Assembly: GCA_965214485.1 (NCBI GenBank)
Contig: CBDCBW010000010.1
Location: 130,594 to 194,593, forward strand
DNA from: Rhodothermales bacterium
GTDB lineage: Bacteria; Bacteroidota; Rhodothermia; Rhodothermales; JANQRZ01
Direction of reading: 5' to 3'
Length of the DNA stretch: 64,000 nucleotides
Each line of letters starts with the position of its first letter. The first letter of the stretch is position 1. A model generated the notes under the pieces. The model had not been told where the DNA came from and did not search any database. It worked only from the letters and a program-made list of their open reading frames with translations. Below, piece by piece: positions 23,782 through 36,758 of this stretch. The translations under genes were made by a program, and so were the position numbers.

Positions 23782-24303
23782 CTCGGAGCGGAGCGATGGC
23801 AGCGGAAGCGGGGGCCAGCCTGCGAGCAACGGTCTTCCGCTGTGGCAGTGCGGCGGGGCGGCTCTGCGGTCCTGGGCGTGAAGAACCCCTCGACTTCGGC
23901 CTACGGGACACGTCCTACGGCCCCCGCCCAGGATGACGGGACAAGGGGAGGCCATCGCGGCGCGCGGCTCCGTCTCCCGAGCCGGCACGCGGGCGAGGCG
24001 ACCGAGGCGCTTCCGACGCGATGACCGGTGAGTGTCCCGGAAAGGACCAGGGTGAGCTTGCCCCGGCACCGATCCCTCTTTTCGGCGCAGCGCGGGGGGT
24101 ACAGAAGCACTAGGCGGGATGCGCCCAAACTACCCCCTTGCATGTGCTAAAACTCAAGGGTTTCCTACCGCCCCAGCGGGTACTTTTAGATTGCCCTTCC
24201 TGCTGGTCCACGCCTCCGACCCTCTCCGCCTAACCGCCCCGGCTTCGTGTTCGCTTCCTTCTTCCCGGTCGCTGACCATGTGCCCCCCGAGGCCACCCGG
24301 ATC

Positions 24304-25103: not shown

Positions 25104-26231
25104 CTAGTCGGTCTCGGGGAGGTAGAGCTCTGCCGTCCGGCGCGCGGCGGAGTAGGCCCCGTACCGCAGCCCGCCTGCGACGCCGTCCTGCGCCAGCACG
25201 TTGAGCCGCACCCGGTCCCAGTACGGCTCGACCTTCATGTGAGCCTGTTTCGGAAGCCGCTCCAGCAGGTCGTGCCCCAGCGTTCTCACGCGGTGGTCGC
25301 GGCGGATGTCGTCCCGGACGTGCTTCGGCAGCGGAGCCGCCAGGAGGTCAGCGGCGAGCAACAGGCCGAGCCGGAGGATGCGGCGGCTGCGCATCGCGCC
25401 CATCCGGTCGTAGACGGCGTGCCAGTCCAGGCCGGGGTAGGCGCGGACGAGCTCGGCGACGTCGCAGATGTACTTGAACCGGTCCCACCGATTCTTCAGG
25501 CCGTGGTAGCACAGCACCTGGAGGAGGTCCTCCGTGCCCAGCGTGCGCACGTCGCGCCCGGCGATGGGCACCGTCACCGAGCGCGCGAGGAGGGCGTCGA
25601 AGCTCTCCGAGTACCGGTAGCCCGGCGGCATTATGGCCGTGTGCACGTCGATGAAAGCCTGCGCTTCGCCGAGGCTGTGGATGCGCCGCCAGAACGTGTA
25701 TTGGCCGTTGAGGTAGAGATAGCTCGCCTTCCGAAACGGGGTCAGCGGCTTGGACCCGTAGCCTTCGCGGGCCAGCATCCGGTCGAGCCGGTCGAAGTCC
25801 TCGCGCCGGACGACCAGGTCGATGTCGACGAACGGGCGGGCGGCGATGCCTCCGTAGACGCTCTGCGCAAGCACGGCCCCTTTGACGGCGAGCGTCGGGA
25901 AGGCCTCGCGCTCGAACACCTCGGACAGGCGCCCGAGCTCCTGCATCAGGATGAGGCTGTGGGCCGAGCGCGCCCCGACGACCCCGCGCAGCCACGTCAT
26001 GTGCGGCTCCGAGAGGAGGGCGTCGTCCATCTCGCGCAGGTGGCAGTAGAGGAGCGGCTGCACGCCGTGGTAGCCGGCCAGCGTGACGAGGTAGCCCCAC
26101 TGCAGATCGTCGTCGCGGAGGTGGTGCGCGACCTGTTCGGCATGGGACGGCTCGAGCTCCGTCCGGCAGCAGAGCCGCATGATGTTGTATTCGGGGCGGG
26201 AGCCGGCCTCGTCGGGGTGAATCGTAGCCAT
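25104..26231 (-). CDS. Uncharacterised nucleotidyltransferase family protein (NTP_transf_5-like)
   Basis: Start at the ATG at 26231 (MATIHPDEAGS...). The protein has PFVDIDLVVRREDFDRLDRMLAREGY and the overall helical N-domain typical of the PF14907-type family that often accompanies lasso-peptide/HPr-kinase-like clusters. Confidence 0.6.
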   Translation of the reverse strand: MATIHPDEAGSRPEYNIMRLCCRTELEPSHAEQVAHHLRDDDLQWGYLVTLAGYHGVQPLLYCHLREMDDALLSEPHMTWLRGVVGARSAHSLILMQELGRLSEVFEREAFPTLAVKGAVLAQSVYGGIAARPFVDIDLVVRREDFDRLDRMLAREGYGSKPLTPFRKASYLYLNGQYTFWRRIHSLGEAQAFIDVHTAIMPPGYRYSESFDALLARSVTVPIAGRDVRTLGTEDLLQVLCYHGLKNRWDRFKYICDVAELVRAYPGLDWHAVYDRMGAMRSRRILRLGLLLAADLLAAPLPKHVRDDIRRDHRVRTLGHDLLERLPKQAHMKVEPYWDRVRLNVLAQDGVAGGLRYGAYSAARRTAELYLPETD

Positions 26232-26240
26232 CAATCTCTC

Positions 26241-26292
26241 GTCATCAGAAGGGTGCCTCTTGTCCTCGGACCTCGTGTCATCAGAAGGGTGC
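26241..26292 (-). promoter_or_regulatory. Two 16-bp direct repeats in the promoter/5' region of the nucleotidyltransferase gene
   Basis: gtcatcagaagggtgc occurs at 26241-26256 and 26277-26292 (36-bp spacing). An AT-rich stretch follows, with TTGACG on the minus strand (attattgacgtgc) just upstream. Confidence 0.45.
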
Positions 26293-26461
26293 ACGTCAAT
26301 AATTCAGAACACACCGGTAGGCCTGACCGGGGCACAGCCGCCGCCGGAGGCATCGCGCGGCGAGCAGAGAGGCTGAGCGCGAGAAGGGGGTTCCGGCAGC
26401 GGGCGTCGGGGCAGTAAGATATCGCATGTTGTCCAACTTGCCTAAGGCTCCGCCAGCGCGC

Positions 26462-27598
26462 TCAGGGCTCGGACGGCCTCCGTGCAGCCTGAGCCGATGG
26501 CTTCAGCACCAGCTCGGCGATGACCGCCCGGTGGTCGGAAACCAGGTCGGGGTCCACGCGCGCGCGCCGGACCACCCAGTCGTCGCTGGCGAGCACGTAG
26601 TCGATGCGGACGAGGGGTAGGCCCGCCGGGAACGTCCCGCCCCAGCCCGTCCCGGCCTCGTCGAAGGCGTCCCGAAAGCCGTGCGCGAGGTGGGTGTAGG
26701 CCCAGTTCCGCGGCGTGCTGTTGAAGTCGCCGCACACGAGGAACGGGTGGGGCTCCGCGTCGAGCATCGCGCGTAGCTGGCGGGCCTGCTCGGCCCGGAC
26801 CTCGAAGTCGCGGCCGTAGGCGTGGAAGGCATCGAGCCAGGCGCGCGGCGAGAACCGCTGGTCCTCCCGCCGCCACGGGCGCTGGCTGCTGAACGAGTGG
26901 AGGTGCACGTTGTAGACCATGATGGTCCGGCCCTGCCACCGGTAGGCGCGGCGCGTGATGCCGCCGGAGCTCCACAGCCCCTCCGGGGGGTTGCCCCGCA
27001 CCAACTCGCTTCGCCCCACCGCCTCGATGCGCGAGAAGAGGGGCCGCGAGAACATGAAGTCCTTGCCGCCATCGGGCCGCGACATCTCGTAGGCTTTGTC
27101 CTTGAGCAGCGGGCCGAGCAGCGGCGCGCCCCAGGTCACGCCGGTGTCGCGGAGCAGGCGGATCGAGAACTCCTGGAGCGCGATGAGGTGGGGGCGGTCG
27201 CGCGCCAGCACGTTGGCGAGGACGTGCTGCTTGCCGCCGCCGTCCTTGCCTGCGTTGAACGTCATCACCGTGAGGCCGGGCGCGTCGGCGGCGGCGGTCG
27301 CGGGGTCAGCGCTGGCGTTCAGCTCCGGCATGAGCACGGTGGCGAGGCAGAGGAGGAGGTGAAGCGCAGCGAGAGCCCAGCGCCGCTTCACGATGAGACC
27401 GACGGCTACGAGCGCCGCCGCGACGAGAACAAGCGTGCCGAAGATGGCGACGACCTGGAGGCCCCAGAGCTGCTCCGGCGGCACGAAGGGGGCCGCGTTC
27501 GCCGCCGCGAGGAGGCCGACGAGCGCGGCGTCTGCCCCCCAGAGAAGCCATCGCCCCCTCCGGGACGGCGGGCGCTTCGGAACCGCTTCGGTCGTCAT
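26462..27598 (-). CDS. Membrane-anchored endonuclease/exonuclease/phosphatase (EEP) family protein
   Basis: 378 aa with about three N-terminal TM helices. The EEP motifs are VMTFN, IALQEF, VYNVHL, CGDFNSTP, RIDYVL and SDHRAV. The start overlaps the upstream stop (ATGA at 27595-27598). Confidence 0.75.
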   Translation of the reverse strand: MTTEAVPKRPPSRRGRWLLWGADAALVGLLAAANAAPFVPPEQLWGLQVVAIFGTLVLVAAALVAVGLIVKRRWALAALHLLLCLATVLMPELNASADPATAAADAPGLTVMTFNAGKDGGGKQHVLANVLARDRPHLIALQEFSIRLLRDTGVTWGAPLLGPLLKDKAYEMSRPDGGKDFMFSRPLFSRIEAVGRSELVRGNPPEGLWSSGGITRRAYRWQGRTIMVYNVHLHSFSSQRPWRREDQRFSPRAWLDAFHAYGRDFEVRAEQARQLRAMLDAEPHPFLVCGDFNSTPRNWAYTHLAHGFRDAFDEAGTGWGGTFPAGLPLVRIDYVLASDDWVVRRARVDPDLVSDHRAVIAELVLKPSAQAARRPSEP

Positions 27599-28503
27599 GC
27601 CGGAATGTAGAACCGCATCAGGACGAGGACGAAGGCGGCCACGTAGAGCGCCGGGGCGTACCGGAAGGTCTCACGCTCGCACTGCATGATCCCCATCGCC
27701 ACGATGAGCCACGCGAAGTACAGGATCGGCGCGACGACGTAGGTCGAGAAGACGAACGCCAGCAGCACCGCGTCGCGCCACTTCGCCAGCCAGAACCTCC
27801 TCGGGAGCAGAAAGGCCACGGCCACGGCTCCCTCGATGGCGAGCGTCCACCACGTCATCAGCGCGGCGAGCCAGCGCGCCTCCGCCGCCAACGGCACCGC
27901 GAGCGCCCCCGCCGGATCGCCGAAGGCGGTGTAGACCACCCGCTCAAGGCGCGCCCGCGCCAGCACCCCGGCGTCGAGCCCGACGAGGTGCTCGGCGAAC
28001 AGCCCGAAGCGCGTGTCCTGAAGCAGGAAGTAGTTGAAGAACGCGCCGCTCACGTAGTCCGGCGAGAGCACCTTCCACAGCGTGGCGAACAGGAAGCACA
28101 GCCCGATGAGCACGCGGGCGTTCACCCGCACCGCCTTCAACGGCTCCACCGCGAGGAGCGAGACGCCGAGGCCGAGGCACCAGTAGAGCTTGAGGAAGTC
28201 GTGGTTGTTCTGCTGGTGCCACGTCTGCCAATAGGCGAGCACGAGCACCCCCACGAGCCCGAGCCACAGCAGCGGGTTGCGCATGAGCGGCCGGAGCACG
28301 AGCGCCGTCACCGTGAGCGTGGTGAGGCCGAGCTGGATGTGCCACGCCGGCTCGTGCAGCGAGAGCACGATCATCACGAGCGTCATCGCCGCCCCGAGCT
28401 CGAACAGGTCGGCCCCGAGGAGCGCATCGACGGGCCGGCGGGCGAGCGTACGCAGCCGGCTCGGTGGTCGAGGGTGCACAGGGGAGAGGGGGGCGGAGTC
28501 CAT
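27595..28503 (-). CDS. Polytopic membrane protein, HTTM / vitamin-K-dependent gamma-carboxylase-like membrane domain
   Basis: 302 aa with about 8 hydrophobic helices. WHQQNNHDFLKLYW resembles the WNNHSYLYGLL motif of GGCX. LWKVLSPDYVSGAFF resembles GVKKLDADWVEGYSM around the catalytic Lys. MTWWTLAIEGAVAVAFLLP resembles VHWGGLLLDLSAGFLLF. The comparison is from a recalled human GGCX sequence, not a search. Confidence 0.45.
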   Translation of the reverse strand: MDSAPLSPVHPRPPSRLRTLARRPVDALLGADLFELGAAMTLVMIVLSLHEPAWHIQLGLTTLTVTALVLRPLMRNPLLWLGLVGVLVLAYWQTWHQQNNHDFLKLYWCLGLGVSLLAVEPLKAVRVNARVLIGLCFLFATLWKVLSPDYVSGAFFNYFLLQDTRFGLFAEHLVGLDAGVLARARLERVVYTAFGDPAGALAVPLAAEARWLAALMTWWTLAIEGAVAVAFLLPRRFWLAKWRDAVLLAFVFSTYVVAPILYFAWLIVAMGIMQCERETFRYAPALYVAAFVLVLMRFYIPA

Positions 28504-28509
28504 AGGGTG

Positions 28510-29118
28510 CTACTCGGCAGCGCTCGGTTGCACCGTCGCCTCGGCGATGCGCTCCCAGCGAAGCAGCTCGGCGTCGGGGTCGAAGACGGGCCTCCAGACC
28601 TCGACGCGCGCGCCCTCGACCTCGGCGTCGGTCGGGAGGCCGTTGTAGGGCGCGCGGCGCGGGTCGAAGGCCAGGTGGCTGGGGTAGAGACCGGAGGCAT
28701 CGACCGACGCCGAGTCCGCCCACGCCGCCTGCCACGCCTCGGAGGTGCGGAAGTAGTGCTGGAGGAAGTCCGGCAGCGACGGCCAGACCGTGCGGTACGT
28801 CGAGGCGTCGTAGACCCGCCAGTCCTGCGCGGCGACGGTGCGCGCCGCCGCCTCGAGGCGGGCCTGCGTCGGCTGCGTGTAGACCAGGCGCGTCTTGACC
28901 CCGAAGCGGGGCTCGACGACGAGCGCCTCGCCCCGGTCCGTCAGCACGTAGGCGCGGAGGGCGCGGGCCCCGGGCACGTCCACGGTCGAGAACATCCCGA
29001 AGCCGCCGCCGGCCCACTGTGTCTGGCCGTGGACCTCGACGTTGTAGCGCTGCAGCGCCACGCCGGCGATCAGCACGATGGGGGCGAGTCCGTAGGCGAG
29101 CCGCTGCGGGAGTCTCAT
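28510..29118 (-). CDS. Single-pass membrane/exported protein, resembles the start of the extracytoplasmic domain of HTTM/VKGC-family proteins
   Basis: Start at the ATG at 29118 (MRLPQRLAYGLAPIVLIAGVALQ), overlapping the ABC exporter stop (ATGA). GGGFGMFSTVDVPGARALRAYVLTDRGE resembles the GYSWDMMVHS...VKITYRDGRTGE segment that follows the membrane domain in GGCX. Otherwise there is no recognisable motif. Confidence 0.35.
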   Translation of the reverse strand: MRLPQRLAYGLAPIVLIAGVALQRYNVEVHGQTQWAGGGFGMFSTVDVPGARALRAYVLTDRGEALVVEPRFGVKTRLVYTQPTQARLEAAARTVAAQDWRVYDASTYRTVWPSLPDFLQHYFRTSEAWQAAWADSASVDASGLYPSHLAFDPRRAPYNGLPTDAEVEGARVEVWRPVFDPDAELLRWERIAEATVQPSAAE

Positions 29119-31025
29119 CGCGGTACGGCGGTGGGGTCCGGAGCAGGGGTCACCTCGGCGGTCTCGTCCCCGGCCTGCCCGTCGCCGACGATGGGCTCCG
29201 CCGTGCCGTCCTCCTGCCGCATCTGCGCCCGCCACGACGCCGCGTACCGCCCGCCGAGGGCAATCAGCTCGTCGTGCGTGCCGGTCTCGACGACCTGCCC
29301 GGCGTCCATGACGTGGATAATGTCGGCCTGCATCGCAGTCGTGAAGCGGTGGGTGATGAGGAGCGCCGTCCGGCCCTCGACCATCCGGCGGAACCGCGCC
29401 AGCCACTCGTTCTCGGCCCACGAGTCCATCGAGCTCGTCGGCTCGTCGAGCACGACGATCGGGGCTTGGCGGAAGAAGGCCCGCGCGAGCGCGACCCGCT
29501 GCCACTCGCCGCCGCTCAGCTCGCTCCCCGTCTCGAACCACCGCCCGAGGACCGAGTCGTACTTCCGGGGCAGCTTCTCGATGACCTCGTGCGCCCCCCC
29601 GCCGACGGCTGCCGCCTGCACGGCGTCGAGATCGACCTCGCGGCCGAGGTCGCCGAGGCGGATGTTGTCCTCGGCCGTCATCTGGTACTTCATCGGGACC
29701 TGGAACATCACCGAGACGTGGCGGCGCAGGTCGGTCTGCGCGAACTCCCGCAGGTCGATGCCGTCGACCGTGATGCGCCCGGCGGTCGGGTCATAGAACC
29801 GGCAGAGGAGCTTGATGAAGGTGCTCTTCCCCGCCCCGTTCTCGCCGACGATGGCGACGATCTTGCCCGACGGGATCGTGAGGTTGAAGCCTTCGAGCGC
29901 CTTCCGCTCGAAACCGGGATAGCTGAACGAGACGTCCTCGAACCGGACGCCCTCGTCGATCCGGTCGGGAAATGGGGTGGGCGTTGCCGGCTCGGCGAGG
30001 CCGTTCTCCTGGTCGAGGAAGTCGAAGAGGTGTTCGAGGAAGAGCGTGTTGGTGTAGACCTGTCCCATGTTCTGGAGCAGCCCGCCGACGAGCGCCTGCC
30101 CCTGGTTGAACGCCTGGTAGAAGAGCGCGAGGTCCCCCAGCGTGGCCGCGCCGCGCGTCGCCCGGAGCACGACCCACAGCATCGCCCCGCCGGTGGCAAT
30201 GAGGCCCATGAAGGTGGCGAAGATGCGCGCGACGACCTGGTTCTTGAGCAGCTTCAGGCGCTCCTCCCGAAGGGCCCGGCGCAGCGCGAGGTAGCGGCTG
30301 CGGAAGTACTCGCCGGTGTTGTTGATCCGCACCTCGGCCGCCGACGCATCGAAGGTCACCATCAGGTCGAAGTACTGCGCGAGGCGGCGGCGGGCCGTCG
30401 AGGCCTTCCACCACGCATGGTACTTCTTGTTGTGACGGACGACGACGAAGAACGCCGGCAGCGTGCTGACGATGAGCACGAGGGGCAGCCACAGGCTGTA
30501 GCTCAGCAGGATCGCCGAGATCGAGAGCAGCGTCACGGTCGCGCTGAGCAGCCCGCCGATGTTGCCGAGGAGCTGCAGCACCCGGCTGTTGGCCTGCGAG
30601 TTGACCTGCTCGAGCTTGTCGTGGTAGTCCGCCGACTCGTAGAAGCCGAAGTCCACCTCGGTCGCTTTCTCGTGGACGAGGGCCTTGACTCGGTCCCCGA
30701 CGAGCTCCGCCTGCGCGGTCGAGACCCACTCGTTGATCCCGCCGAGGACGCGCTGCAGAATCATGACCCCGCCCATCAGCGCCGCCGGAGCGATCACCAC
30801 CGCCAGCGCAGCCTCGCCCGCGACCGCCGCCGCGAGGCTATCGACGAGCCACTTCGTGAGGTAGACCACCGCCGCCGGCAGCGTCCCCTGCACGGCCAGG
30901 AGGAGGAACCACACCACGGTCCACCGGCTCGCCGCCGACCAGATCAGCCGGAGCGCCATCCCCACGTAGGACGCCCGCAGCCGGAGGTCGTCGGCCTTGT
31001 GCCGCCACGTCTGCGTTGCCGTCAT
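29115..31025 (-). CDS. ABC exporter, fused permease + ATPase (lasso-peptide D-type transporter)
   Basis: 636 aa with a six-helix TMD. The NBD has Walker A GENGAGKSTF, signature LSGGEWQRV and Walker B IVVLDEPTS. It sits inside the lasso operon. Confidence 0.85.
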   Translation of the reverse strand: MTATQTWRHKADDLRLRASYVGMALRLIWSAASRWTVVWFLLLAVQGTLPAAVVYLTKWLVDSLAAAVAGEAALAVVIAPAALMGGVMILQRVLGGINEWVSTAQAELVGDRVKALVHEKATEVDFGFYESADYHDKLEQVNSQANSRVLQLLGNIGGLLSATVTLLSISAILLSYSLWLPLVLIVSTLPAFFVVVRHNKKYHAWWKASTARRRLAQYFDLMVTFDASAAEVRINNTGEYFRSRYLALRRALREERLKLLKNQVVARIFATFMGLIATGGAMLWVVLRATRGAATLGDLALFYQAFNQGQALVGGLLQNMGQVYTNTLFLEHLFDFLDQENGLAEPATPTPFPDRIDEGVRFEDVSFSYPGFERKALEGFNLTIPSGKIVAIVGENGAGKSTFIKLLCRFYDPTAGRITVDGIDLREFAQTDLRRHVSVMFQVPMKYQMTAEDNIRLGDLGREVDLDAVQAAAVGGGAHEVIEKLPRKYDSVLGRWFETGSELSGGEWQRVALARAFFRQAPIVVLDEPTSSMDSWAENEWLARFRRMVEGRTALLITHRFTTAMQADIIHVMDAGQVVETGTHDELIALGGRYAASWRAQMRQEDGTAEPIVGDGQAGDETAEVTPAPDPTAVPR

Positions 31026-31053
31026 CGGATTGCATTCTCAGCCAACCCGGAGG

Positions 31054-31962
31054 CTAGCTGTGTGTGGGGACCGCATCGAGGTCTGCCTCGACCAGAGCGA
31101 AGATGTCGGGCAGGGCATCGAGAGACATGATACGCTCCAGAAGCGCCACCGGCGTGTGCTTGGCGAGCTGGGCGCACTGCTTGAAGTGCTCGGAGACGTA
31201 CTCGGGGGCGGTGATCCAGTTCGTCGAGTGCGTGTGGGCGACGAGGTGCATCGGCACCTCCTGCGTGCCGAGCTGCGTGACCCGGTTCGCCTCCGAGGTC
31301 TGCCGCCGCAGCACGTAGAGCTTCGACAGAGGTATCGACCGCACGTCCTCCCCCTTTAGAAGGCGCAGCCGCTTGGGCGAAATCTCGGTGACGAGCGGCA
31401 GGCTTTCGTGGTCCTCGACGAGCCGCTCGGCGGAGTTCGGGCGGAGGCGGACCTGTTTGATGCCCGGCGGGACGCGCGTCGGCTCGGTCTCCGTGCCGGG
31501 GAGCACCACCATCACGTCGTCCGTGATGAGCTCGTAGCCGTTCTGGCAGAAGTACTCGGCGAGGGTCGACTTGCCCCACCCGGAGTTGCCCAAAAACGCG
31601 ACCGCCCGCTCGCCGTCCGACACCGCCGAGCCGTGCAGCACGAGGAGGTGGCGCTGCCTGAGCGCCGCCGCGAGCAGCGCGCCCTGCACGAAGCTGCGGA
31701 GGAGGTCCTCCGAGATCGGCTTCAGCGTGTCGTAGGTGACGACCCTGCCCGCGTTGAGGTGGAAGAGGAGGTCGAGGTCCCACTCGTCTTCCTTGATGTG
31801 CCCGGAGACCACGTCCCCGTAGCGCGCGTCGGCAGCGCTCTTGCGCACGCGGAGGTTGCCTTTTTGGATCGTGACGTCGGGCGGACCGTCGTCGCCGGGT
31901 GCGAAGCCGGAGAGCTCGATGTCGGAGTGGATGGAGAGTCCGAAAGCCTTGTGGCGATGCAT
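31054..31962 (-). CDS. HPr-kinase-C-terminal-domain-like Ser/Thr kinase (lasso-peptide kinase type)
   Basis: Start at the ATG at 31962 (MHRHKAFGLSIHSDIEL). LHGSAVSDGERAVAFLGNSGWGKSTLA is the P-loop context seen in HprK-related kinases of paeninodin-type lasso clusters. Confidence 0.65.
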   Translation of the reverse strand: MHRHKAFGLSIHSDIELSGFAPGDDGPPDVTIQKGNLRVRKSAADARYGDVVSGHIKEDEWDLDLLFHLNAGRVVTYDTLKPISEDLLRSFVQGALLAAALRQRHLLVLHGSAVSDGERAVAFLGNSGWGKSTLAEYFCQNGYELITDDVMVVLPGTETEPTRVPPGIKQVRLRPNSAERLVEDHESLPLVTEISPKRLRLLKGEDVRSIPLSKLYVLRRQTSEANRVTQLGTQEVPMHLVAHTHSTNWITAPEYVSEHFKQCAQLAKHTPVALLERIMSLDALPDIFALVEADLDAVPTHS

Positions 31963-32021
31963 CGTGTGGTGGGCTGCAGGCGGCGGGACCTGGGTTGCAG
32001 AGATGAGAGCACCCCATTCTA

Positions 32022-32057
32022 GCGAAGGCTCCGAGGAATGATCCCCGAAGCCTTCGC
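32022..32057 (-). promoter_or_regulatory. Hairpin downstream of the precursor gene (possible attenuator/stabiliser)
   Basis: gcgaaggct (32022-32030) pairs with agccttcgc (32049-32057) in a 9-bp stem plus 2 further pairs. It lies about 45 nt after the precursor stop and about 60 nt before the kinase start. Confidence 0.4.
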
Positions 32058-32102
32058 CGAGTCGTGCTCCGGCCACCTGGGCCGGTCGTGTAGAGGCGAG
32101 CC

Positions 32103-32288
32103 CTACGGATCGATCATGCACGTTTCCTGGTTGACGGTCGGGCACTGGTCGACCGAGTTGAGTCCTTCCTCGATCACGTTGCCGTCCAGGTCGAACGACT
32201 GATCGCCCGTGAAGGGGTCGCCCAGCGTCGCCGTGATCTCCGCCACATCACCGTAAGCGGTGAGTTGAGGTGCGATATAGGTCTTCAT
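32103..32288 (-). CDS. Lasso-peptide precursor (A), 61 aa
   Basis: MKTYIAPQLTAYGDVAEITA|TLGDPFTGDQSFDLDGNVIEEGLNSVDQCPTVNQETCMIDP. The leader fits the lasso motif YxxPxLx3Gx5Tx exactly (Y4, P7, L9, G13, T19). Asp sits at core position 9. The gene lies between the cyclase and the kinase. The ATG at 32288 is internal to the 102-aa track ORF. Confidence 0.7.
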   Translation of the reverse strand: MKTYIAPQLTAYGDVAEITATLGDPFTGDQSFDLDGNVIEEGLNSVDQCPTVNQETCMIDP

Positions 32289-32361
32289 GGTGAAGTACCT
32301 CTTGGTTGTGTTGTTGTGAAGGTCTACGAGGCGTGTTCCCCGTAGGATGTGGCCGTCCGGG

Positions 32362-32373
32362 CGAACCGGTTCG
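32362..32373. promoter_or_regulatory. Perfect 12-bp palindrome upstream of the precursor gene
   Basis: CGAACCGGTTCG lies about 75 nt upstream of the precursor ATG, inside the 202-bp lower-GC gap between cyclase and precursor. It is a possible operator. Confidence 0.3.
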
Positions 32374-32490
32374 GCCAGGTGGTGCAGGCGGAGAGCAAAT
32401 GCTACTTCCAAGCCTGCCTAAGTCTACACCCTGAAAAGTCGTACGGAGTGTGCCGGATGGAGCCTTCTGTATGCGCCTAAGGCGACTCTG

Positions 32491-34587
32491 CTAGACCGGC
32501 ATCTCCCCACCTTCCGGTTTCGTGAGCGAGGGGGTACTCTCCGCCGTGTCCACGAATCTCTTCTTTAGCCAGAAAGACAGGGTAGCCACACGGGCGAGCT
32601 GGGCCTGTTCGATGTTGGAAACGTCTTTCCCCCCGCGGTAGAGGCTATCGACCTCGGCTTCGTCCACGTAGGGGCGGAGCGCCCCGAGGTCCGTGATGTG
32701 TTCGTCGAGGAGGCCGCGGTCTTGCTCGTAGAGGCCGCGCTCGAAGTTGGGAGCGAGCCACGCCTTGCCCACGCGCCACTGCACTTTCTTCGGCAGGACG
32801 CCCTCGAGCGCGCGGCGCAGGATGGACCGCGTCCACCCGTCTTTCAGGCTCTGCCCGGGCGGGAGCGCGAGGCAGAACTCGACGAGCCGTTTGTCGAAGA
32901 AGGGGTGACGGATTTCGATGCGGTGTGCTGCGCTGGCGTGGGTGGTGAGCTCGAGCGCCGTTTGGATGCGGGAGCCGTTGAGCAACTGGCGCTGCACGTC
33001 GCGCACCGTCGTTAGCCGAGGCTTCTGGACCTCGAAGGCCTGCAGGCGCTCGGCGACCCCGATGCGTTCGGCAAAGGCGGGGTTCAGCAGCGGCAGGAGC
33101 GGCTCGGGGCGGCGCTCGGCCTTGGGGCCGCTGCGCCAGGCGTCGCGGGCGCGCTGCAAAGCCAGCGGTTGCATCAGCCAGCGCCGGTAGCGCCGGAACA
33201 GCTCGGCGCGCTCAACGCCGAAGAGCCGGTGCGCCGCCGAGGCTTCGCGGACGAACTGCCAGCGCTTGCCCTGCTCGGCGAGACGCTGAAGCCGGGCCAG
33301 CCCGAACCGCTGGAACGCCGTGTTGAGGTTGGCGAAGCTGTCCTCGAAGTTGTGGCGCTGCTCGGTGCTCTGGAACTGCCGCGCCGCAGCCTTGCTCTCG
33401 TGGGCGAACGTCTCCCAGTCCCCAGCCTCCGCTAGCTCCTTGAGATAGAGCAGCCCGTGCCCGACGACGTTGTCCCCGTCGAGGCCATCGAGGAGCACGC
33501 GGACGCCCGCCTTGCGAGCGGCAGCCTTCGCGGCCCACACGAGATGCTGGTTGCCGCTGGCGAGGCCGTCGTCGAGGTAGGTGTACACCTCGTCCAAATT
33601 GGAGAGCGGCCCGAGCTGGTCCCCTCGCACGAAGTGCGGGATGAAATCGCCTTGCTCTAGCACCGCGTCGATGAACGGGCGCTCGTCGCACGTCGCGACG
33701 TCCTCGTAGACGAGCGAGACCGTGTGGAGCGGCTTCCCCTCTTTCTCCAAGAGCCGCGCTGCCACAGCCGTGATCGACGACGAGTCCATCCCCCCACTCA
33801 GTTCAGAGCCGACGGGGAACGCGCTGCGGAGGCGGGCGCGGACGGCCTCGGTGAACAGCTCCCGGAAGCGCGCCTCGTACTCGGCGTCGGAGGCGTCGGG
33901 TGGCACATCGGCCGCCGGGGCCAGCGTGTAGTAGCGCCAGCGCCGCAGCCCGTCCGGGGAGACGGTGAGCGCGTGCGAGGCCGGGAGGCGGAGGACCTCT
34001 TCGTAGATCGTGTTCTCCGGGTCCTCGCGCATGGTCGCGAGGAAATCGGCGAGGCGGACCTCGTTGAGCCGCTCCGGCACCTCGGGTACGGCGAGCAGGG
34101 CTTTGATCTCCGTCCCGCAGGCGAAGTGGCTCCCCTCCCGGTAGTGGTAGTAGAAGGGTCGGATGCCGAAGTGATCGCGCGCGCAGAACAGCCGCTGCGC
34201 CGGGCCGTCCCAAATGGCAAAGGCGAAATCCCCGATGAGATGATCGAGGCAGCCCTCGCCCCACGCCGCGTAGGCGGCCAGAATCAGGTTGCTGTCGGTG
34301 ACGGGCTCCGCCTGGTCGCCGAGCCGCAGCCGGGCGAGCAGCGCGTCCCGGTTGTCGATCCGGGCATCGGCGGTGATGGCGAGCCCCGCCTCGGTCGCCA
34401 ACGGCAGCGCTTCGTGCAGCGATTCCGGCGTGGTGTGGAGCATCCGGTGCCCCAGCCCGATCGGCCCCTCGGCCCACACGCCCGCGCCGTCAGGGCCGCA
34501 GTGCGCCACGGCGTCGCCCATGCGGCGCAGCGCGTCCCGGTCCACGCCGTGACCGTCGAGTCGGTATAGCCCGGTGAGTGCGCTCAC
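32491..34587 (-). CDS. Lasso-peptide cyclase (asparagine-synthetase-like, C protein)
   Basis: Start at the GTG at 34587 (VSALTGLYRLDGHGVD), overlapping the B2 stop (GTGA). There is no N-terminal Cys nucleophile. It has the PP-loop SELSGGMDSS and is 698 aa. The 121 upstream codons of the track ORF overlap B2 out of frame. Confidence 0.8.
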   Translation of the reverse strand: MSALTGLYRLDGHGVDRDALRRMGDAVAHCGPDGAGVWAEGPIGLGHRMLHTTPESLHEALPLATEAGLAITADARIDNRDALLARLRLGDQAEPVTDSNLILAAYAAWGEGCLDHLIGDFAFAIWDGPAQRLFCARDHFGIRPFYYHYREGSHFACGTEIKALLAVPEVPERLNEVRLADFLATMREDPENTIYEEVLRLPASHALTVSPDGLRRWRYYTLAPAADVPPDASDAEYEARFRELFTEAVRARLRSAFPVGSELSGGMDSSSITAVAARLLEKEGKPLHTVSLVYEDVATCDERPFIDAVLEQGDFIPHFVRGDQLGPLSNLDEVYTYLDDGLASGNQHLVWAAKAAARKAGVRVLLDGLDGDNVVGHGLLYLKELAEAGDWETFAHESKAAARQFQSTEQRHNFEDSFANLNTAFQRFGLARLQRLAEQGKRWQFVREASAAHRLFGVERAELFRRYRRWLMQPLALQRARDAWRSGPKAERRPEPLLPLLNPAFAERIGVAERLQAFEVQKPRLTTVRDVQRQLLNGSRIQTALELTTHASAAHRIEIRHPFFDKRLVEFCLALPPGQSLKDGWTRSILRRALEGVLPKKVQWRVGKAWLAPNFERGLYEQDRGLLDEHITDLGALRPYVDEAEVDSLYRGGKDVSNIEQAQLARVATLSFWLKKRFVDTAESTPSLTKPEGGEMPV

Positions 34588-35045
34588 GCGGCGTCCGGGT
34601 GGACCGGGCTCAGCGGCGTGTACCGGACCTGCGACAGCCCTCCCCCGATGACGACGTAGCCGTCGCGCTCGAGCCATGCATGCGCCAGGAGTTTGCGACC
34701 GTCCTTGCTGACGCCGAGGTGAAGCGAGGTTTCGTAGCCGCCCCGCCGCAGCATCCGCTGCGCGACGAGCGCCTGCGTCAGGCACGGCTTGTCGCCCAGC
34801 GTCCGTCGTCCCACCGCCTCCACGGCGGCGACGACGCGCTGCCGGAAGGCTGCCCCCTCTTGGATAGTGACAGGAGCTACCTCTCTTCGCCCTGAACTCG
34901 TTAGACCTGAGCCTGCCAGACGCTGCACCGTGCGATAGGGCAGCACCCACAACCCCACCCGCACCGCCGCTACCAGCGCAAGCGCGTGCAGCAGGAGCAT
35001 CTTGTCCTCCCCGGACCGGTCTAGGAATTTACGAAGGGCTCCCAT
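34584..35045 (-). CDS. Lasso-peptide leader peptidase (B2, transglutaminase-like Cys protease)
   Basis: 153 aa. N-terminal LRKFLDRSGEDKMLLLHALALVAAVRVGLWVLPYRTV, catalytic Cys context KPCLTQALVAQRMLRRGG and His context LLAHAWLERDG are all typical of lasso B2 proteins. Confidence 0.8.
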   Translation of the reverse strand: MGALRKFLDRSGEDKMLLLHALALVAAVRVGLWVLPYRTVQRLAGSGLTSSGRREVAPVTIQEGAAFRQRVVAAVEAVGRRTLGDKPCLTQALVAQRMLRRGGYETSLHLGVSKDGRKLLAHAWLERDGYVVIGGGLSQVRYTPLSPVHPDAA

Positions 35046-35319
35046 CCGTGATCTCGATGAGCTGACGCTGCTCCATCTCGTGCAAAAACGCGAGGAGGTC
35101 TTCCTTCAGCTTACTCTCCTTCACATCGTACTCCTGGAGCAAGGCGTCCATGATGCGTTCCACCGAACGCGGTTTCCGCACGAGGTCGAAGATGCGGGCT
35201 CCTAGCTCGTTCAGGCCGTAATAGCGCCCCGAGTTAGGGTCCAGCACGACGGCCTCTCCACCGAGATCAGCAGCCGTCAAGCCCGGCGTCACTACAACAG
35301 TCGATTGCTCTGTCATCAT
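35029..35319 (-). CDS. PqqD-family RiPP recognition element (lasso B1)
   Basis: GEAVVLDPNSGRYYGLNELGARIFDLV...ERIMDALLQEYDV is the PqqD/RRE pattern. ATG at 35319, with an alternative TTG at 35331. It overlaps the B2 start by 17 nt. Confidence 0.75.
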   Translation of the reverse strand: MMTEQSTVVVTPGLTAADLGGEAVVLDPNSGRYYGLNELGARIFDLVRKPRSVERIMDALLQEYDVKESKLKEDLLAFLHEMEQRQLIEITDGSPS

Positions 35320-35477
35320 GAGCAGGTTCAAGGTGAGTTACCTCCGAAGGGATTTAAGGGCACAGTATAGAGCGCGTCCGACTGAAGTGCCTACGCCCGC
35401 CCGAGATTCTACCGAGCAACGTGCCGTTTTGGTGCCAGCACATCCTGTGCCGTGAGCCTGCCAAGCACCGAGAGTTC

Positions 35478-36758
35478 TCAGGACGCTGCCCCCGACATAT
35501 TGAAGCCCGGTCTCGGACTGAGCCGCTGGCCTCCGTGCTCCTGAGCTTCCTGGATCCTTCCTGCAGCCACCGGCTCCGCAGGAGCATCCTGCTCCACGTC
35601 ATTCTCGAAAGCTGTGGCATACGACGCCAGCTCTACGTGCTCCCGAAGCCGGTCCTCAGTTCCGAGCGAAGGCACCCCGATCGGGTGAACGTCCGGTCCG
35701 ACGTAGCTACGCCGGAGATATTTCAGCCTGTTCAACCCGAGGCCAGCCAAAGCGAGCACGGCAACGACGATTCCGACGCTATAGGCAGCCGAGGTCACGC
35801 TCATCATCACAGCCGCGCCTCCGAACGAAACCGCCACCGCGTAGAGCACCAGCACAGCCTGGCGGTGCGACAGCGTCCGCGTGAGCCGGTGGTGAATGTG
35901 GTCCCGATCCGGCGCGAAGATCGCCTGCTGCCCGAGGAAACGCCGAGCGATGGAGAGCGCCGTGTCGATCAGCGGCAGGCCGAGCACGACGGCCGGGATG
36001 AGCACGGCCAGCCAGGGGTTGGGGTGGCCGGTGCCGGAGAGGCTGTACGTCGCCAGCAGATAGCCCAGGAACAGGCTCCCGGAATCGCCCATGAAGATAG
36101 ACGCCGGGTTGAAGTTGAACAGCAAGAACCCAGCGAGCGCCCCGGTGATGATGAGAGCGATCAGGACGAGGCCCAACTCGCCGTTGAGCCCGAAGATCAG
36201 TCCCAGCGACGCGAAGGCGATCAGCGACACCCCGGCGGCGAGGCCGTCGAGGCCGTCAAGCAGGTTGACGGCGTTGATCACGCCGACGACCCAGAGCAGC
36301 GTCAGCGGCATCGAGATGAGCGCGTGCGTGTAGGGGTCCTCGCCCAGGAACGGTATTCCCGCCAGGTCGATCCGGTACCCGGCGTGCAGCAGGGCGTACG
36401 CGACGAGGAGTTGGACGAGGAACTTGCCCTTGAAGCCGAGGCCCCGGATGTCGTCGTAGAAGCCGGCGGCCACAATCACGAGCGCGCCCACCCACAGAGC
36501 CGACGAGGGGAACTGAACATCGAAGTGCAGCAGGTCCCGGACCGCGTGCAGGTAGGCAAGCCCCACGGCGAACCCAATCGCGATGGCGACGCCGCCAACA
36601 GCCGGGACGATGGCCGCGTGTAGCTTCCGCTGTCCATCCGGGTGGTCAACCCAGTCCCGTTCAATTGCAAGACGCCGTACGACCGGCGTGAGCAGGCCCG
36701 TCGTCCCGAAAGCGACGAAGAAGCCTGTGATGAGGGTGATGAGTACCGAATACTCCAT
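35478..36758 (-). CDS. Polyprenyl-phosphate HexNAc-1-phosphate transferase (MraY/WecA/WbpL family, GT4 superfamily)
   Basis: 426 aa with about 10-11 TM helices and motifs YDDIRGL, NAVNLLDGLDGLA, NPASIFMGDSGSLFLGY and DRDHIHH. It also has an about 90-aa non-membrane C-terminal tail. Confidence 0.8.
   Translation of the reverse strand: MEYSVLITLITGFFVAFGTTGLLTPVVRRLAIERDWVDHPDGQRKLHAAIVPAVGGVAIAIGFAVGLAYLHAVRDLLHFDVQFPSSALWVGALVIVAAGFYDDIRGLGFKGKFLVQLLVAYALLHAGYRIDLAGIPFLGEDPYTHALISMPLTLLWVVGVINAVNLLDGLDGLAAGVSLIAFASLGLIFGLNGELGLVLIALIITGALAGFLLFNFNPASIFMGDSGSLFLGYLLATYSLSGTGHPNPWLAVLIPAVVLGLPLIDTALSIARRFLGQQAIFAPDRDHIHHRLTRTLSHRQAVLVLYAVAVSFGGAAVMMSVTSAAYSVGIVVAVLALAGLGLNRLKYLRRSYVGPDVHPIGVPSLGTEDRLREHVELASYATAFENDVEQDAPAEPVAAGRIQEAQEHGGQRLSPRPGFNMSGAAS

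What the first reader, a model, noticed from the sequence alone, without database searches (positions are those of the whole stretch)
26462..35331. Complete lasso-peptide operon extended by three translationally coupled membrane genes
Reading the minus strand from 35319 to 26462, the gene order is as follows. First come a PqqD-like RRE (B1) and a transglutaminase-like Cys protease (B2; CLTQAL...HAWLERDG). Then comes an Asn-synthetase-like cyclase that lacks the N-terminal Cys but keeps the SGGMDSS PP-loop (C), followed by the 61-aa precursor (A). After these come an HPr-kinase-like P-loop kinase and an ABC exporter (D), and finally three further genes. Junctions are very tight: B1/B2 overlap by 17 nt, B2/C share GTGA, D/next share ATGA, then a 6-nt gap, then ATGA. 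The extra genes are therefore almost certainly co-expressed with the exporter. Kinase-containing lasso clusters of the paeninodin type are established. I know of no described lasso operon that also carries an HTTM/VKGC-like pair and a membrane EEP-family enzyme. The A gene sitting after C rather than first is also atypical. The host looks like a T9SS-bearing high-GC Bacteroidota/Rhodothermota-type organism, a group with little or no characterised lasso chemistry to my knowledge.
Basis: partly seen in the sequence, partly recalled or inferred. Interest (0 to 1): 0.88.

Follow-up and report, generated by a model that had tools for sequence, protein, structure and literature searches.

The report
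Lasso-peptide operon with carboxylase-like membrane genes
This is a real, complete gene cluster for a knotted "lasso" peptide in a Rhodothermales bacterium, and fused to its exporter gene are a two-part membrane enzyme distantly resembling the vitamin-K-dependent carboxylase and an outward-facing phosphoesterase, which suggests the peptide is modified again after export.

Summary
Genes on the minus strand from 35331 to 26462 encode B1 (PqqD), B2, cyclase C, a 61-aa precursor, an HPr-kinase-like protein and an ABC exporter. Three further genes follow with the stated overlaps (ATGA, 6-nt gap, ATGA). The C-A-kinase order is normal for paeninodin/pseudomycoidin-type clusters, not atypical.

The "HTTM/VKGC-like pair" is not recovered by Pfam or NCBIfam. 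Several weak lines of evidence nevertheless agree that X2 corresponds to the catalytic membrane half of vitamin-K carboxylase. They also suggest that X1 corresponds to its last helix plus the start of the lumenal domain, making the pair a split enzyme.

The X1-X2 pair is a large unannotated family (1577 clusters at 50% identity, many phyla). It usually sits downstream of a small secreted Cys-containing protein, which in five loci carries Gla-domain-like motifs. Only one Rhodothermales lineage (eight distinct loci examined) has it inside a lasso cluster, always with the membrane EEP enzyme.

The precursor is unusual: the core is about 39 aa, with an invariant FDxDG motif and two Cys, and no C-terminal Ser.

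Most likely reading: post-export tailoring. Verdict: a new variant of a known kind, with chemistry unproven.

The parts
35364..35393 (-). sigma-70-like promoter candidate upstream of B1 (TAGGCA-18-TATACT)
   Evidence: This is a consensus match only (2 found against 0.3 expected in shuffles).
35029..35331 (-). B1, PqqD-type RiPP recognition element (100 aa from TTG 35331; alternative ATG at 35319)
   Evidence: PF05402 3.3e-19. NF033536 lasso_PqqD_Bac scores 72 bits, below its cutoff of 80. GGAGG lies 9 nt upstream of the TTG.
34584..35045 (-). B2, transglutaminase-like Cys leader peptidase (153 aa)
   Evidence: PF13471 1.4e-21. NF033537 lasso B2 scores 90.9 bits against a cutoff of 33. It overlaps B1 by 17 nt.
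32491..34587 (-). C, lasso macrolactam synthetase (698 aa, GTG start within GTGA). It has no N-terminal Cys and keeps the SGGMDSS PP-loop.
   Evidence: NF033535 scores 763.6 bits against a cutoff of 525. Asn_synthase 9e-49. Sequence.
32103..32288 (-). A, 61-aa precursor. The leader is MKTYIAPQLTAYGDVAEITAT(L). The predicted core is GDPFTGDQSFDLDGNVIEEGLNSVDQCPTVNQETCMIDP.
   Evidence: NF033528 scores 34 against a cutoff of 33; NF033521 scores 21.6 against 19. Ten family precursors were aligned.
32020..32058 (-). stable hairpin in the A-K intergenic region, possibly an attenuator or mRNA stabiliser after the precursor gene
   Evidence: the 148-nt spacer folds at -72.4 kcal/mol with z = -4.97, and 0 of 200 shuffles fold as well.
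31054..31962 (-). K, HPr-kinase-like P-loop protein (302 aa; GNSGWGKST ... TDD)
   Evidence: Hpr_kinase_C 7.7e-4 (19.5 bits, below its cutoff). TIGR04352 3e-8, below its cutoff. PDB HPrK E 0.3. It sits directly after A, as in the psm and pade clusters.
29115..31025 (-). D, ABC exporter (fused TMD-NBD, 636 aa)
   Evidence: ABC_tran 1e-32. MsbA-like 1.5e-85, below that model's cutoff of 602 bits, so this shows similarity only.
28510..29118 (-). X1 (202 aa): one N-terminal TM helix, the invariant W-x-GGGFGMFST-x-D motif and an outward alpha/beta domain. I propose it corresponds to the last TM helix plus the start of the lumenal domain of vitamin-K carboxylase.
   Evidence: No Pfam or NCBIfam hit. 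Alignment A2. AF2 pLDDT 87.7. Smith-Waterman against VKGC aligns X1 3-197 to VKGC 358-567 with z 5.1; 1 of 500 shuffles reaches the score. hhalign gives the same register with E 0.16 and 0.058. The start shares ATGA with the D stop.
27595..28503 (-). X2 (302 aa): polytopic membrane protein with invariant N100-H101 and near-invariant K144, R165 and E224. I propose it corresponds to the catalytic HTTM/VKGC membrane domain.
   Evidence: No Pfam or NCBIfam hit. AF2 pLDDT 91.5. In Foldseek against the PDB, the only hits with prob >0.9 and TMq about 0.5 are human VKGC (9bvo, 9wf3, 9l6q), at E 0.18-0.9. The family HMM aligns DNHxYL to VKGC NNHSYL, E 0.06. hhalign places K144 on the invariant HTTM Lys, E 0.079. 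Weak MauE and DoxX_3 hits occur in 16 of 149 members.
26462..27598 (-). EEP: membrane-anchored endonuclease/exonuclease/phosphatase-fold enzyme (378 aa) with three N-terminal hydrophobic segments. The catalytic domain is predicted to face the periplasm.
   Evidence: PF03372 2e-20. The motifs TFNAG, LQE, GDFN and SDH are present. Topology follows from the positive-inside rule. The start shares ATGA with the X2 stop. Homologs at >=42% identity are listed on contigs of the same lengths as X1/X2 hits; shared loci were checked directly only for the examined cluster loci.
25104..26231 (-). N, PsmN-type uncharacterised nucleotidyltransferase (375 aa from ATG 26231; the ORF extends to GTG 26294).
   Evidence: PF14907 4.4e-52. 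It is present downstream of the EEP gene in L001, L002, L008-L011, L091 and L092. PsmN adds hexose to the phosphorylated lasso peptide (PMC6993621).

Best explanation
This is a ten-gene lasso-peptide pathway of the kinase/nucleotidyltransferase (paeninodin/pseudomycoidin) type. It has acquired a post-export processing module.

Shown by family membership:
- B1 binds the YxxPxLxxxGxxxxxT leader.
- B2 cleaves the leader.
- C makes the isopeptide ring.
- D is an ABC exporter.

Inferred from the sequence:
- The ring runs from Gly23 to the invariant Asp29 (7-membered), or from Thr21 to Asp29 (9-membered).
- The tail is unusually long, about 32 residues, with an invariant F-D-x-D-G motif and a C-x7-C pair that probably forms a class-IV-like disulfide.

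Inferred from the pseudomycoidin precedent: K and N add a phosphate and then a sugar in the cytoplasm. The site must differ from the canonical C-terminal Ser, which is absent. Ser45, Thr27 and Thr51 are invariant candidates.

Inferred from gene fusion, topology and remote homology: after export, two outward-facing membrane enzymes act on the peptide.
- X1-X2 is a two-gene, quinone-dependent enzyme distantly related to the vitamin-K-dependent carboxylase. It would carry out an oxidative or carboxylating modification of the acidic, Cys-bearing tail, or form its disulfide.
- The EEP enzyme would hydrolyse the phospho(di)ester put on by K and N, releasing the active form.
For: - Core families pass curated cutoffs.
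- The same order, B1-B2-C-A(1-4 copies)-K-D-X1-X2-EEP-N, is found in eight distinct loci spanning X2 identity 100 to 53-56% and EEP identity 100 to 52% in the loci compared directly. L011 is the same genome as L001, and L008 is truncated inside C, so it shows only the C-terminal end of C onward. In L091 the K/D, D/X1, X1/X2 and X2/EEP junctions are all 4-nt overlaps.
- In the window the junctions are ATGA, 6 nt and ATGA, with no terminator-like site between D and the EEP stop except one weak 5-bp match inside X2.
- Outside this lineage, X1 sits directly upstream of X2 in 75 of 79 loci across many phyla. The pair is typically preceded by a gene for a small secreted Cys-containing protein: a DUF6515-type protein in 32 loci, and a tandem EC-x4-C-x2-EE motif in 5 loci and nowhere else in 2.7 M translated residues. 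Pfam Gla is the top or second hit, below threshold, E 3.6e-4 to 0.047. This is an enzyme-next-to-substrate pattern, and in the lasso loci the only such cis-encoded peptide is the lasso precursor.
- VKGC relationship.
- The EEP catalytic motifs are intact and the domain is predicted to face outward.
- More distant EEP homologs (33-39% identity) in Salinibacter and Rhodocaloribacter are stand-alone genes, so the clustered copy is a dedicated paralog.
- A kinase and a PsmN homolog in the same cluster would supply a phosphoester substrate.
Against: - No line of evidence for VKGC homology is significant on its own. The P-like values are 0.06-0.16, apart from the X1 Smith-Waterman result of about 0.002. 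Pfam HTTM does not hit, and profile searches against PDB sequences find nothing relevant.
- Glu is not conserved in the core. Two L002 precursors have none, so canonical Glu gamma-carboxylation cannot be the conserved reaction.
- The kinase match is weak, and its known substrate feature, a C-terminal Ser, is missing.
- All lasso-linked loci come from one lineage with syntenic flanks, so conservation of the arrangement is partly inherited rather than independently assembled.
- There are no expression or product data.
- N is separated from the EEP gene by about 230 nt containing a terminator-like hairpin.
Confidence: 0.55

Rival explanations
1. X1-X2 and EEP form a self-protection or envelope-remodelling module rather than tailoring enzymes. 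Co-expressed with the exporter, they would modify a membrane lipid, a quinone or an envelope component that is the peptide's target, or destroy re-entering peptide. This would give the producer immunity.
For: - They are coupled to the exporter gene, which is the usual immunity determinant in lasso clusters.
- The EEP protein has a faint similarity to the membrane resistance protein VanJ (NF000373, E 0.0033, far below cutoff).
- Non-lasso X1-X2 pairs sit among envelope genes: OmpA, Gly-zipper, FadL, DUF2092/LolA-like.
- GerE-type response regulators of the cell-envelope-stress kind are adjacent in the window and in 17 non-lasso loci.
Against: - The generic module is most consistently linked to a small secreted protein gene, not to a resistance context.
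- VKGC-type enzymes modify peptides.
- The VanJ similarity amounts only to a shared EEP fold.
- PADLOC finds nothing, although that library covers anti-phage defence only.
Confidence: 0.22
2. The three genes are functionally unrelated passengers. On this view an autonomous membrane module happened to land behind the exporter gene in an ancestor of this Rhodothermales lineage and has been inherited with it ever since.
For: - X1-X2 is autonomous in at least 75 other loci with no lasso genes within 10 kb.
- All lasso-linked examples share flanking synteny (GT4 and Wzz upstream, response regulators downstream), so they trace to a single origin.
Against: - Start-stop overlaps are maintained or even tightened (L091) while proteins have diverged to 52-56% identity.
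- The small substrate-like gene that usually precedes X1 is missing and is replaced by the lasso genes.
- The EEP paralog at >=42% identity appears only on contigs matching those that carry the clustered X1/X2 genes.
- The lasso-linked X2 sequences form a separate identity class: >=53% among themselves against <=45% to all others.
Confidence: 0.13
3. X1-X2 is not related to VKGC/HTTM at all. It would be an unrelated polytopic protein plus a partner, for example a transporter or a DoxX/MauE-type thiol-redox protein, and the VKGC resemblance would be a generic helical-bundle similarity.
For: - The Foldseek E-values are 0.18-0.9, and ABC-transporter TMDs rank above VKGC by E-value.
- The hhalign probabilities are below 2%.
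- The commonest weak Pfam hit is MauE, not HTTM.
- The Gla-like motif proteins match Topo V HhH repeats equally well.
Against: - VKGC chains are the only PDB hits with TMq about 0.5 and prob 0.93-0.99, against about 0.2 and below 0.5 for all the others.
- Three independent alignment methods put the two VKGC catalytic motifs, NNH160 and K218, in register with the invariant or near-invariant residues of the X2 family.
- The obligate partner X1 aligns, in order, with exactly the part of VKGC that X2 lacks.
Confidence: 0.25

Closest known systems
Pseudomycoidin (psm) and paeninodin (pade) lasso clusters of Bacillus and Paenibacillus (PMC6993621; PMC8498205)
   Same: - Split B1/B2.
- A C-A-K sub-block in which an HPr-kinase-like gene directly follows the precursor gene.
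- An ABC exporter D.
- An NTP_transf_5 (PsmN-type) gene.
   Different: - The gene order is B1-B2-C-A-K-D...N instead of C-A-K-B1-B2-N-D.
- The precursor lacks the C-terminal Ser that PadeK and PsmK phosphorylate.
- The core is about 39 aa, against the 15-30 aa of known lasso peptides, and has two invariant Cys and an FDxDG motif.
- Three extra membrane genes are fused to D.
- The host is in Rhodothermales, not Firmicutes or Proteobacteria.
Vitamin-K-dependent gamma-glutamyl carboxylase / HTTM domain proteins (PDB 9bvo, 9l6q; bacterial HTTM proteins such as WP_284686687.1)
   Same: - The X2 model has the VKGC membrane fold as its only convincing PDB match.
- The N-N-H and Lys motifs align.
- X1 aligns with the last TM helix, the W..G..(F/Y)S(W)xM motif and the start of the lumenal domain.
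- Some family members sit next to Gla-motif-like proteins.
   Different: - The enzyme is split into two genes in permuted order, with the C-terminal part encoded first.
- Pfam HTTM does not recognise it.
- There is no propeptide-binding region comparable to that of the vertebrate enzyme.
- The substrate here has no conserved Glu.
SdpA/SdpB maturation of the SdpC cannibalism toxin in Bacillus subtilis
   Same: An HTTM-type polytopic membrane protein and a small partner protein are needed to mature a secreted peptide toxin of about 42 residues that contains a disulfide.
   Different: - NCBIfam SdpA/SdpB models do not hit X1 or X2.
- SdpC is Sec-exported and is not a lasso peptide.
- The chemistry of SdpAB is itself unknown.
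Class IV lasso peptides (a disulfide within the tail; from memory)
   Same: The two Cys both lie in the tail (C-x7-C), with none in the ring.
   Different: The tail is much longer, and additional tailoring genes are present. The topology is unverified.

Membership tests
Lasso peptide biosynthetic gene cluster | RRE (PqqD-like B1) present | tested here: met
   PF05402 69.4 bits against a cutoff of 23.4.
Lasso peptide biosynthetic gene cluster | Transglutaminase-like Cys leader peptidase (B2) | tested here: met
   NF033537 90.9 bits against a cutoff of 33. The CLTQAL and HAWLE motifs are visible in the sequence.
Lasso peptide biosynthetic gene cluster | Asn-synthetase-like macrolactam synthetase (C) | tested here: met
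   NF033535 763.6 bits against a cutoff of 525.
Lasso peptide biosynthetic gene cluster | Precursor with a leader (Thr at -2) and a core with an Asp/Glu at position 7-9 | tested here: met
   NF033528 and NF033521 score above their cutoffs. T19, T21, G23 and D29 are invariant in 10 precursors. The exact cleavage site is ambiguous (G1-D7 or T1-D9).
Lasso peptide biosynthetic gene cluster | Product has a threaded lariat topology | not testable with these tools
   This needs MS/NMR of the product.
Paeninodin/pseudomycoidin-type (phosphorylated or phosphoglycosylated) lasso clusters | HPr-kinase homolog encoded next to the precursor gene | tested here: inconclusive
   Hpr_kinase_C scores 19.5 bits, below its cutoff of 33.3. 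TIGR04352 scores 33, below 200. The P-loop and DD motif are present, and the gene sits directly after A. No PadeK or PsmK sequence was available for direct comparison.
Paeninodin/pseudomycoidin-type (phosphorylated or phosphoglycosylated) lasso clusters | C-terminal Ser on the precursor as the phosphorylation site | tested here: not met
   None of the 10 aligned family precursors ends in Ser. Nine end in Pro and one ends in Cys-Val.
Paeninodin/pseudomycoidin-type (phosphorylated or phosphoglycosylated) lasso clusters | PsmN-type NTP_transf_5 gene in the cluster | tested here: met
   PF14907 177.6 bits against a cutoff of 31.2. It is conserved in every related locus that extends that far.
HTTM / vitamin-K-dependent carboxylase family | Match to the Pfam HTTM model (PF05090) | tested here: not met
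   There is no hit at E<=10 for X1, X2 or any of 149 X2-family members.
HTTM / vitamin-K-dependent carboxylase family | VKGC-like membrane fold | tested here: inconclusive
HTTM / vitamin-K-dependent carboxylase family | Catalytic motifs (N-N-H160 and K218 in the human numbering) conserved and alignable | tested here: inconclusive
   N100 and H101 are invariant and K144 is at least 90% conserved in 149 sequences. The motifs are aligned to VKGC/HTTM by hmmsearch (E 0.06), Smith-Waterman (13 of 500 shuffles reach the score) and hhalign (E 0.079).
HTTM / vitamin-K-dependent carboxylase family | Single polypeptide carrying both the membrane domain and the lumenal domain | tested here: not met
   The two parts are separate adjacent genes, X1 then X2, in 75 of 79 loci.
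Endonuclease/exonuclease/phosphatase (EEP) superfamily | PF03372 match with the catalytic Asn/Glu/Asp/His motifs | tested here: met
   73.9 bits against a cutoff of 24.5. FN(114), QE(142), GDFN(290) and DH(355) are present.

The most novel reading that the evidence does not exclude
X1-X2 is a genuine bacterial, two-subunit vitamin-K(menaquinol)-dependent carboxylase. The 1577-cluster family it belongs to would then be a widespread, unrecognised prokaryotic Gla-type modification system, whose substrates are the small secreted proteins encoded next to it. In this Rhodothermales lineage it would carboxylate, or otherwise oxidatively modify, an exported lasso peptide at its invariant FDxDG/acidic tail. 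The result would be the first post-export, quinone-dependent RiPP tailoring step and a calcium-binding lasso peptide, with the EEP enzyme removing a cytoplasmic phospho-sugar protecting group.
Probability: 0.2. Interest if true: 0.92.

Novelty: new variant of a known kind. Interest (0 to 1): 0.74.

Why it matters
Known lasso tailoring steps (phosphorylation, glycosylation, methylation, acetylation, citrullination, hydroxylation, epimerisation) are carried out by soluble cytoplasmic enzymes. A cluster whose exporter gene is translationally fused to two outward-facing membrane enzymes would point to tailoring or activation after export, which is a different logic for this RiPP class.

The precursor lies outside the known size range, lacks the canonical kinase site and carries a DxDG-type acidic motif, so the product is likely to be chemically new.

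The work also exposes a large, unannotated bacterial gene pair that looks like a split vitamin-K carboxylase. In several phyla the pair sits beside proteins with Gla-domain-like ECx4Cx2EE motifs. If that relationship is real, the long-standing question of what bacterial HTTM/VKGC relatives do becomes directly testable with defined substrate-enzyme pairs.

Tried and rejected
- Profiles of the X2 family (33 and 149 sequences) searched against PDB sequences gave no VKGC hit.
- hhalign of the X2 profile against the single human VKGC sequence gave only a trivial 23-column match.
- Foldseek of X1 against the PDB found no meaningful match.
- PADLOC gave no hits for X1, X2, EEP, N or K.
- phmmer of the EEP protein against the PDB found nothing.
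- A metagenome-contig scan with the precursor alignment found no relatives, so I could not ask whether this precursor family exists without X1-X2-EEP.
- The paeninodin paper (PMC4919450) is not held.
- I considered canonical Glu gamma-carboxylation of the lasso core and rejected it as the conserved reaction, because two family precursors have no Glu in the core.
- I considered VanJ-like resistance for the EEP protein. The match is 16.9 bits against a cutoff of 700, so it reflects fold-level similarity only.
- I considered whether the upstream GT4/Wzz genes belong to the cluster. They are syntenic in all relatives, but they are ordinary polysaccharide-export genes, so I treated them as flank.

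Full report
**1. Observation**

The minus strand between 35331 and 26462 carries nine closely packed ORFs, exactly as described. I read every junction directly from the sequence:
- The B1 stop (35029-35031) lies inside B2, whose ATG is at 35045, giving a 17-nt overlap.
- The B2 stop and the C start form GTGA at 34584-34587.
- C and A are 202 nt apart.
- A and K are 140 nt apart.
- K and D are 28 nt apart.
- D and X1 share ATGA (29115-29118).
- X1 and X2 are 6 nt apart.
- X2 and EEP share ATGA (27595-27598).

A sigma-70-like promoter candidate lies just upstream of B1. The A-K spacer folds into an unusually stable hairpin (-72.4 kcal/mol, z = -4.97).

**2. Family assignments**

The core lasso genes pass curated thresholds:
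- PqqD: 69 bits against a cutoff of 23.
- Lasso B2 (NF033537): 90.9 against 33.
- Lasso cyclase (NF033535): 763.6 against 525.
- The 61-aa precursor: NF033528, 34 against 33, and NF033521 leader, 21.6 against 19.

D is an MsbA-like fused ABC exporter. The kinase is only weakly HPrK-like (below all cutoffs; PDB HPrK E 0.3). It does have the GNSGWGKST P-loop and a TDD motif, and it sits directly after the precursor gene. The last gene is a clear EEP-fold enzyme (PF03372, 2e-20) with intact catalytic motifs.

The two genes between D and EEP, here called X1 and X2, hit no Pfam or NCBIfam model even at E <= 10.

**3.

A tenth same-strand gene (25104-26231) is an NTP_transf_5 protein (PF14907, 4e-52). 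This is the family of PsmN, which adds hexose to the phosphorylated C-terminus of pseudomycoidin (PMC6993621; PMC8498205). It accompanies the cluster in every related locus that extends far enough to show it.

The published psm cluster reads psmC-psmA-psmK-psmB1-psmB2-psmN-psmD. The C-A-K order here is therefore the hallmark of this cluster type and is not atypical.

**4. Conservation**

Homolog searches found only about 45-60 close relatives each for X1, X2 and EEP among 5.8 billion proteins. Their listed contig lengths coincide.

Eight distinct loci have the same order: B1-B2-C-A(1-4 copies)-K-D-X1-X2-EEP-N. They are L001 (the same genome as L011), L002, L008 (truncated inside C), L009, L010, L091 and L092, plus the window. 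They span X2 identity down to 53-56% and EEP identity down to 52%. In L091 the K/D, D/X1, X1/X2 and X2/EEP junctions are all 4-nt overlaps.

The flanks are also syntenic: GT4 and Wzz-type genes upstream, and GerE-type response regulators downstream. All these loci therefore descend from one ancestral locus in a Rhodothermales lineage (record titles). This supports long-term co-retention but not independent assembly.

**5. What X1-X2 is**

A genome scan found X2 relatives in 222 species. They include Acidobacteriota, Myxococcota, Planctomycetota, Gemmatimonadota, Dadabacteria, Spirochaetia and Actinomycetota. An exhaustive profile search found 1577 clusters at 50% identity.

In 75 of 79 non-lasso loci an X1-like gene, with the motif W-x-G-[GA]-G-[FY]-[GA]-M-F-S, sits immediately upstream of X2. 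None of these loci has lasso, EEP or NTP_transf_5 genes within 10 kb. X1-X2 is thus an autonomous, widespread, unannotated two-gene module.

AlphaFold models are confident: pLDDT 91.5 for X2 and 87.7 for X1. Several lines of evidence link the pair to VKGC:
- In Foldseek against the PDB, the only hits with high probability (0.93-0.99) and TMq of about 0.5 are human vitamin-K-dependent carboxylase structures, although their E-values are weak at 0.18-0.9.
- I verified the human VKGC sequence against PDB 13ib_A.
- I retrieved three annotated bacterial HTTM proteins from plasmids and built an HTTM alignment, A7.
- An HMM of 193 X2 sequences aligns its invariant D-N-H-x-Y-L to VKGC N-N-H160-S-Y-L, E 0.06.
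- Smith-Waterman gives a collinear X2 16-194 to VKGC 50-282 alignment; 13 of 500 shuffles reach its score.
- hhalign puts the conserved K144 on the invariant HTTM Lys, which is human K218, E 0.079.
- X1 aligns with VKGC 358-567, meaning the last TM helix, the W..G..YSWDM motif and the start of the lumenal domain. The Smith-Waterman z is 5.1, and 1 of 500 shuffles reaches the score. hhalign recovers the same register twice, E 0.16 and 0.058.
- Weak Pfam hits in the X2 family go to MauE (12 members) and DoxX_3 (4 members). From memory, these belong to the same Pfam clan as HTTM.

No single result is significant. They agree, however, on one picture: X2 is the catalytic membrane half and X1 the C-terminal half of a VKGC-like enzyme, encoded as two genes in permuted order. 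I put this at about 0.7-0.75.

**6. Context of the generic module**

The gene upstream of X1 in non-lasso loci is usually a small secreted Cys-containing protein. In 32 loci it is a DUF6515-type protein, often preceded by a DUF2092 gene.

In five loci it carries tandem E-C-x4-C-x2-E-E motifs. These loci come from Pyrinomonadaceae (two), Nannocystis, Kofleriaceae and another Acidobacteriota genome. The strict motif occurs 10 times in 2.7 million translated residues, and all 10 lie on the same strand as X1-X2 and within about 1.7 kb of them.

Pfam's Gla domain is the best hit for two of these proteins and the second-best for a third, all below threshold (E 3.6e-4, 0.016, 0.047). Nine of 14 weak PDB hits are Gla domains of factors IX and X and of protein C, although Topo V HhH repeats score equally well.

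This is suggestive evidence that the family acts on cis-encoded secreted peptides. In the lasso loci, that position is taken by the lasso genes.

**7. The precursor**

Ten family precursors share invariant residues T19, T21, L22, G23, P25-F26-T27-G28-D29, F32-D33, D35-G36, S45, Q48-C49-P50-T51 and C57.

Position 24 varies (D, N or A), so D29 is the ring acceptor. The ring is either G23 to D29 (7-membered) or T21 to D29 (9-membered).

The core is about 39 aa, against the 15-30 aa of characterised lasso peptides. Both Cys lie in the tail, which is class-IV-like.

No precursor ends in Ser, so the defining substrate feature of PadeK/PsmK-type kinases is not met. Glu is absent from two cores, which rules out canonical Glu carboxylation as the conserved reaction. 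The invariant acidic residues form an F-D-x-D-G motif. From memory, this resembles the DxDG calcium-binding motif of calcium-dependent lipopeptides.

**8. The EEP enzyme**

It has three N-terminal hydrophobic segments, a +5 N-terminus, a KRR loop after segment 2 and an acidic stretch after segment 3. By the positive-inside rule, these features place the catalytic domain outside the cytoplasmic membrane.

Homologs at 33-39% identity in Salinibacter and Rhodocaloribacter are stand-alone genes in unrelated contexts. The clustered copy is therefore a dedicated paralog.

**9. Mechanism**

Shown: a split-B lasso pathway with an exporter.

Inferred from precedent: K and N install a phosphate and then a sugar, at a non-canonical site.

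Inferred from gene fusion, topology and remote homology: after export, the VKGC-like X1-X2 enzyme and the outward-facing EEP phosphoesterase act on the peptide. X1-X2 would carry out an oxidative or carboxylating modification, or form the disulfide. EEP would remove the phospho(glycosyl) group.

Rivals are an immunity or envelope-remodelling role (0.22), passenger genes (0.13), and the possibility that the VKGC resemblance is spurious (0.25; this is not exclusive of the first two).

**10. Novelty**

No paper in the searchable library combines 'lasso peptide' with 'HTTM'. None links lasso peptides substantively with Rhodothermales. A June 2026 review of interlocked peptides does not mention vitamin K, phosphatases or Bacteroidota in this context. 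The library is incomplete, and MIBiG and antiSMASH could not be queried.

I classify the locus as a new variant of a known kind: a kinase/nucleotidyltransferase-type lasso cluster. The side observation on the X1-X2 family may be of wider interest than the cluster itself.

Noticed in passing
window 25104-26294 (-): An NTP_transf_5 (PsmN-type nucleotidyltransferase) gene lies about 230 nt downstream of the EEP gene. It is conserved in every related locus that extends that far, so the cluster has ten genes rather than nine.
   Followed up: yes
L013 8928-9362, L014 8820-9305, L028 8793-9266, L065 ~8291-8450, L073 ~11622-11780 (relaxed form in L003 9067-9378, L019 9065-9355, L024 9052-9363): Small proteins next to non-lasso X1-X2 pairs carry tandem E-C-x4-C-x2-E-E-[VI]-x-E-L motifs. 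For the three proteins scanned (L013, L014, L028), Pfam Gla is the top or second hit, below threshold (E 3.6e-4 to 0.047). In all five loci the strict motif occurs nowhere else in the fetched loci. These may be bacterial Gla-like substrates of a split VKGC-like enzyme.
   Followed up: partly
L005 8897-9544, L079 8690-9421 and about 30 further loci; DUF2092 at L079 7887-8687: The commonest gene upstream of X1-X2 outside Rhodothermales encodes a DUF6515-type protein. It has a charged low-complexity region and ends in ...C...YYxCGxxWYxxxYxxGxVxYVVVxPPxGY. A DUF2092 (LolA-like) gene often precedes it.
   Followed up: partly
window 32020-32058 (-), within the A-K spacer 31963-32102: A very stable hairpin with a stem of about 17 bp lies directly after the precursor gene (z = -4.97). 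It may set the ratio of precursor mRNA to enzyme mRNA.
   Followed up: partly
window 26240-26300 (-) and about 26415-26425: A direct repeat, GCACCCTTCTGATGAC, occurs twice just upstream of the N gene start. The motifs ATATCTT and TTCTGATG in the EEP-N spacer are partly conserved in L001, L008, L009 and L010. A terminator-like hairpin lies at 26314-26330.
   Followed up: partly
window 22962-23261 and 24312-24611 (+): A 300-nt direct repeat at 94% identity lies downstream of the cluster. One copy falls within the REC+GerE response regulator gene (24247-25029), which converges on the cluster. By synteny with L001 and L092, the other copy probably falls in a second response regulator gene; this was not checked with Pfam. 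Relatives have two such regulators plus a PAS-HisKA_3 kinase. GerE-type regulators also neighbour X1-X2 in 17 non-lasso loci.
   Followed up: partly
L002 5346-6289, L091 4878-6451, L092 5336-5876: Related clusters carry two to four tandem precursor genes with different tail sequences. The window has one.
   Followed up: yes
window 41680-42804 (+): A second asparagine-synthetase homolog (34% identity to C over 398 aa) lies a few kb beyond the Wzz-type gene at 37768-40158. I presume it belongs to a polysaccharide locus and is unrelated to the lasso cluster.
   Followed up: no
L091 275-1501 and 1517: In one relative, the Glycos_transf_4 gene ends only 15 nt before B1. In the window the gap is about 147 nt (GT4 at 35478-36758). 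Whether this sugar-phosphate transferase contributes to the pathway is open.
   Followed up: no
L093 1-2862, L094 994-2862: Canonical bacterial HTTM genes on plasmids sit next to imelysin and di-haem oxidoreductase genes, or next to a DUF393 gene (from memory, the DCC thiol-disulfide oxidoreductase family). This hints at redox roles for bacterial HTTM proteins.
   Followed up: no
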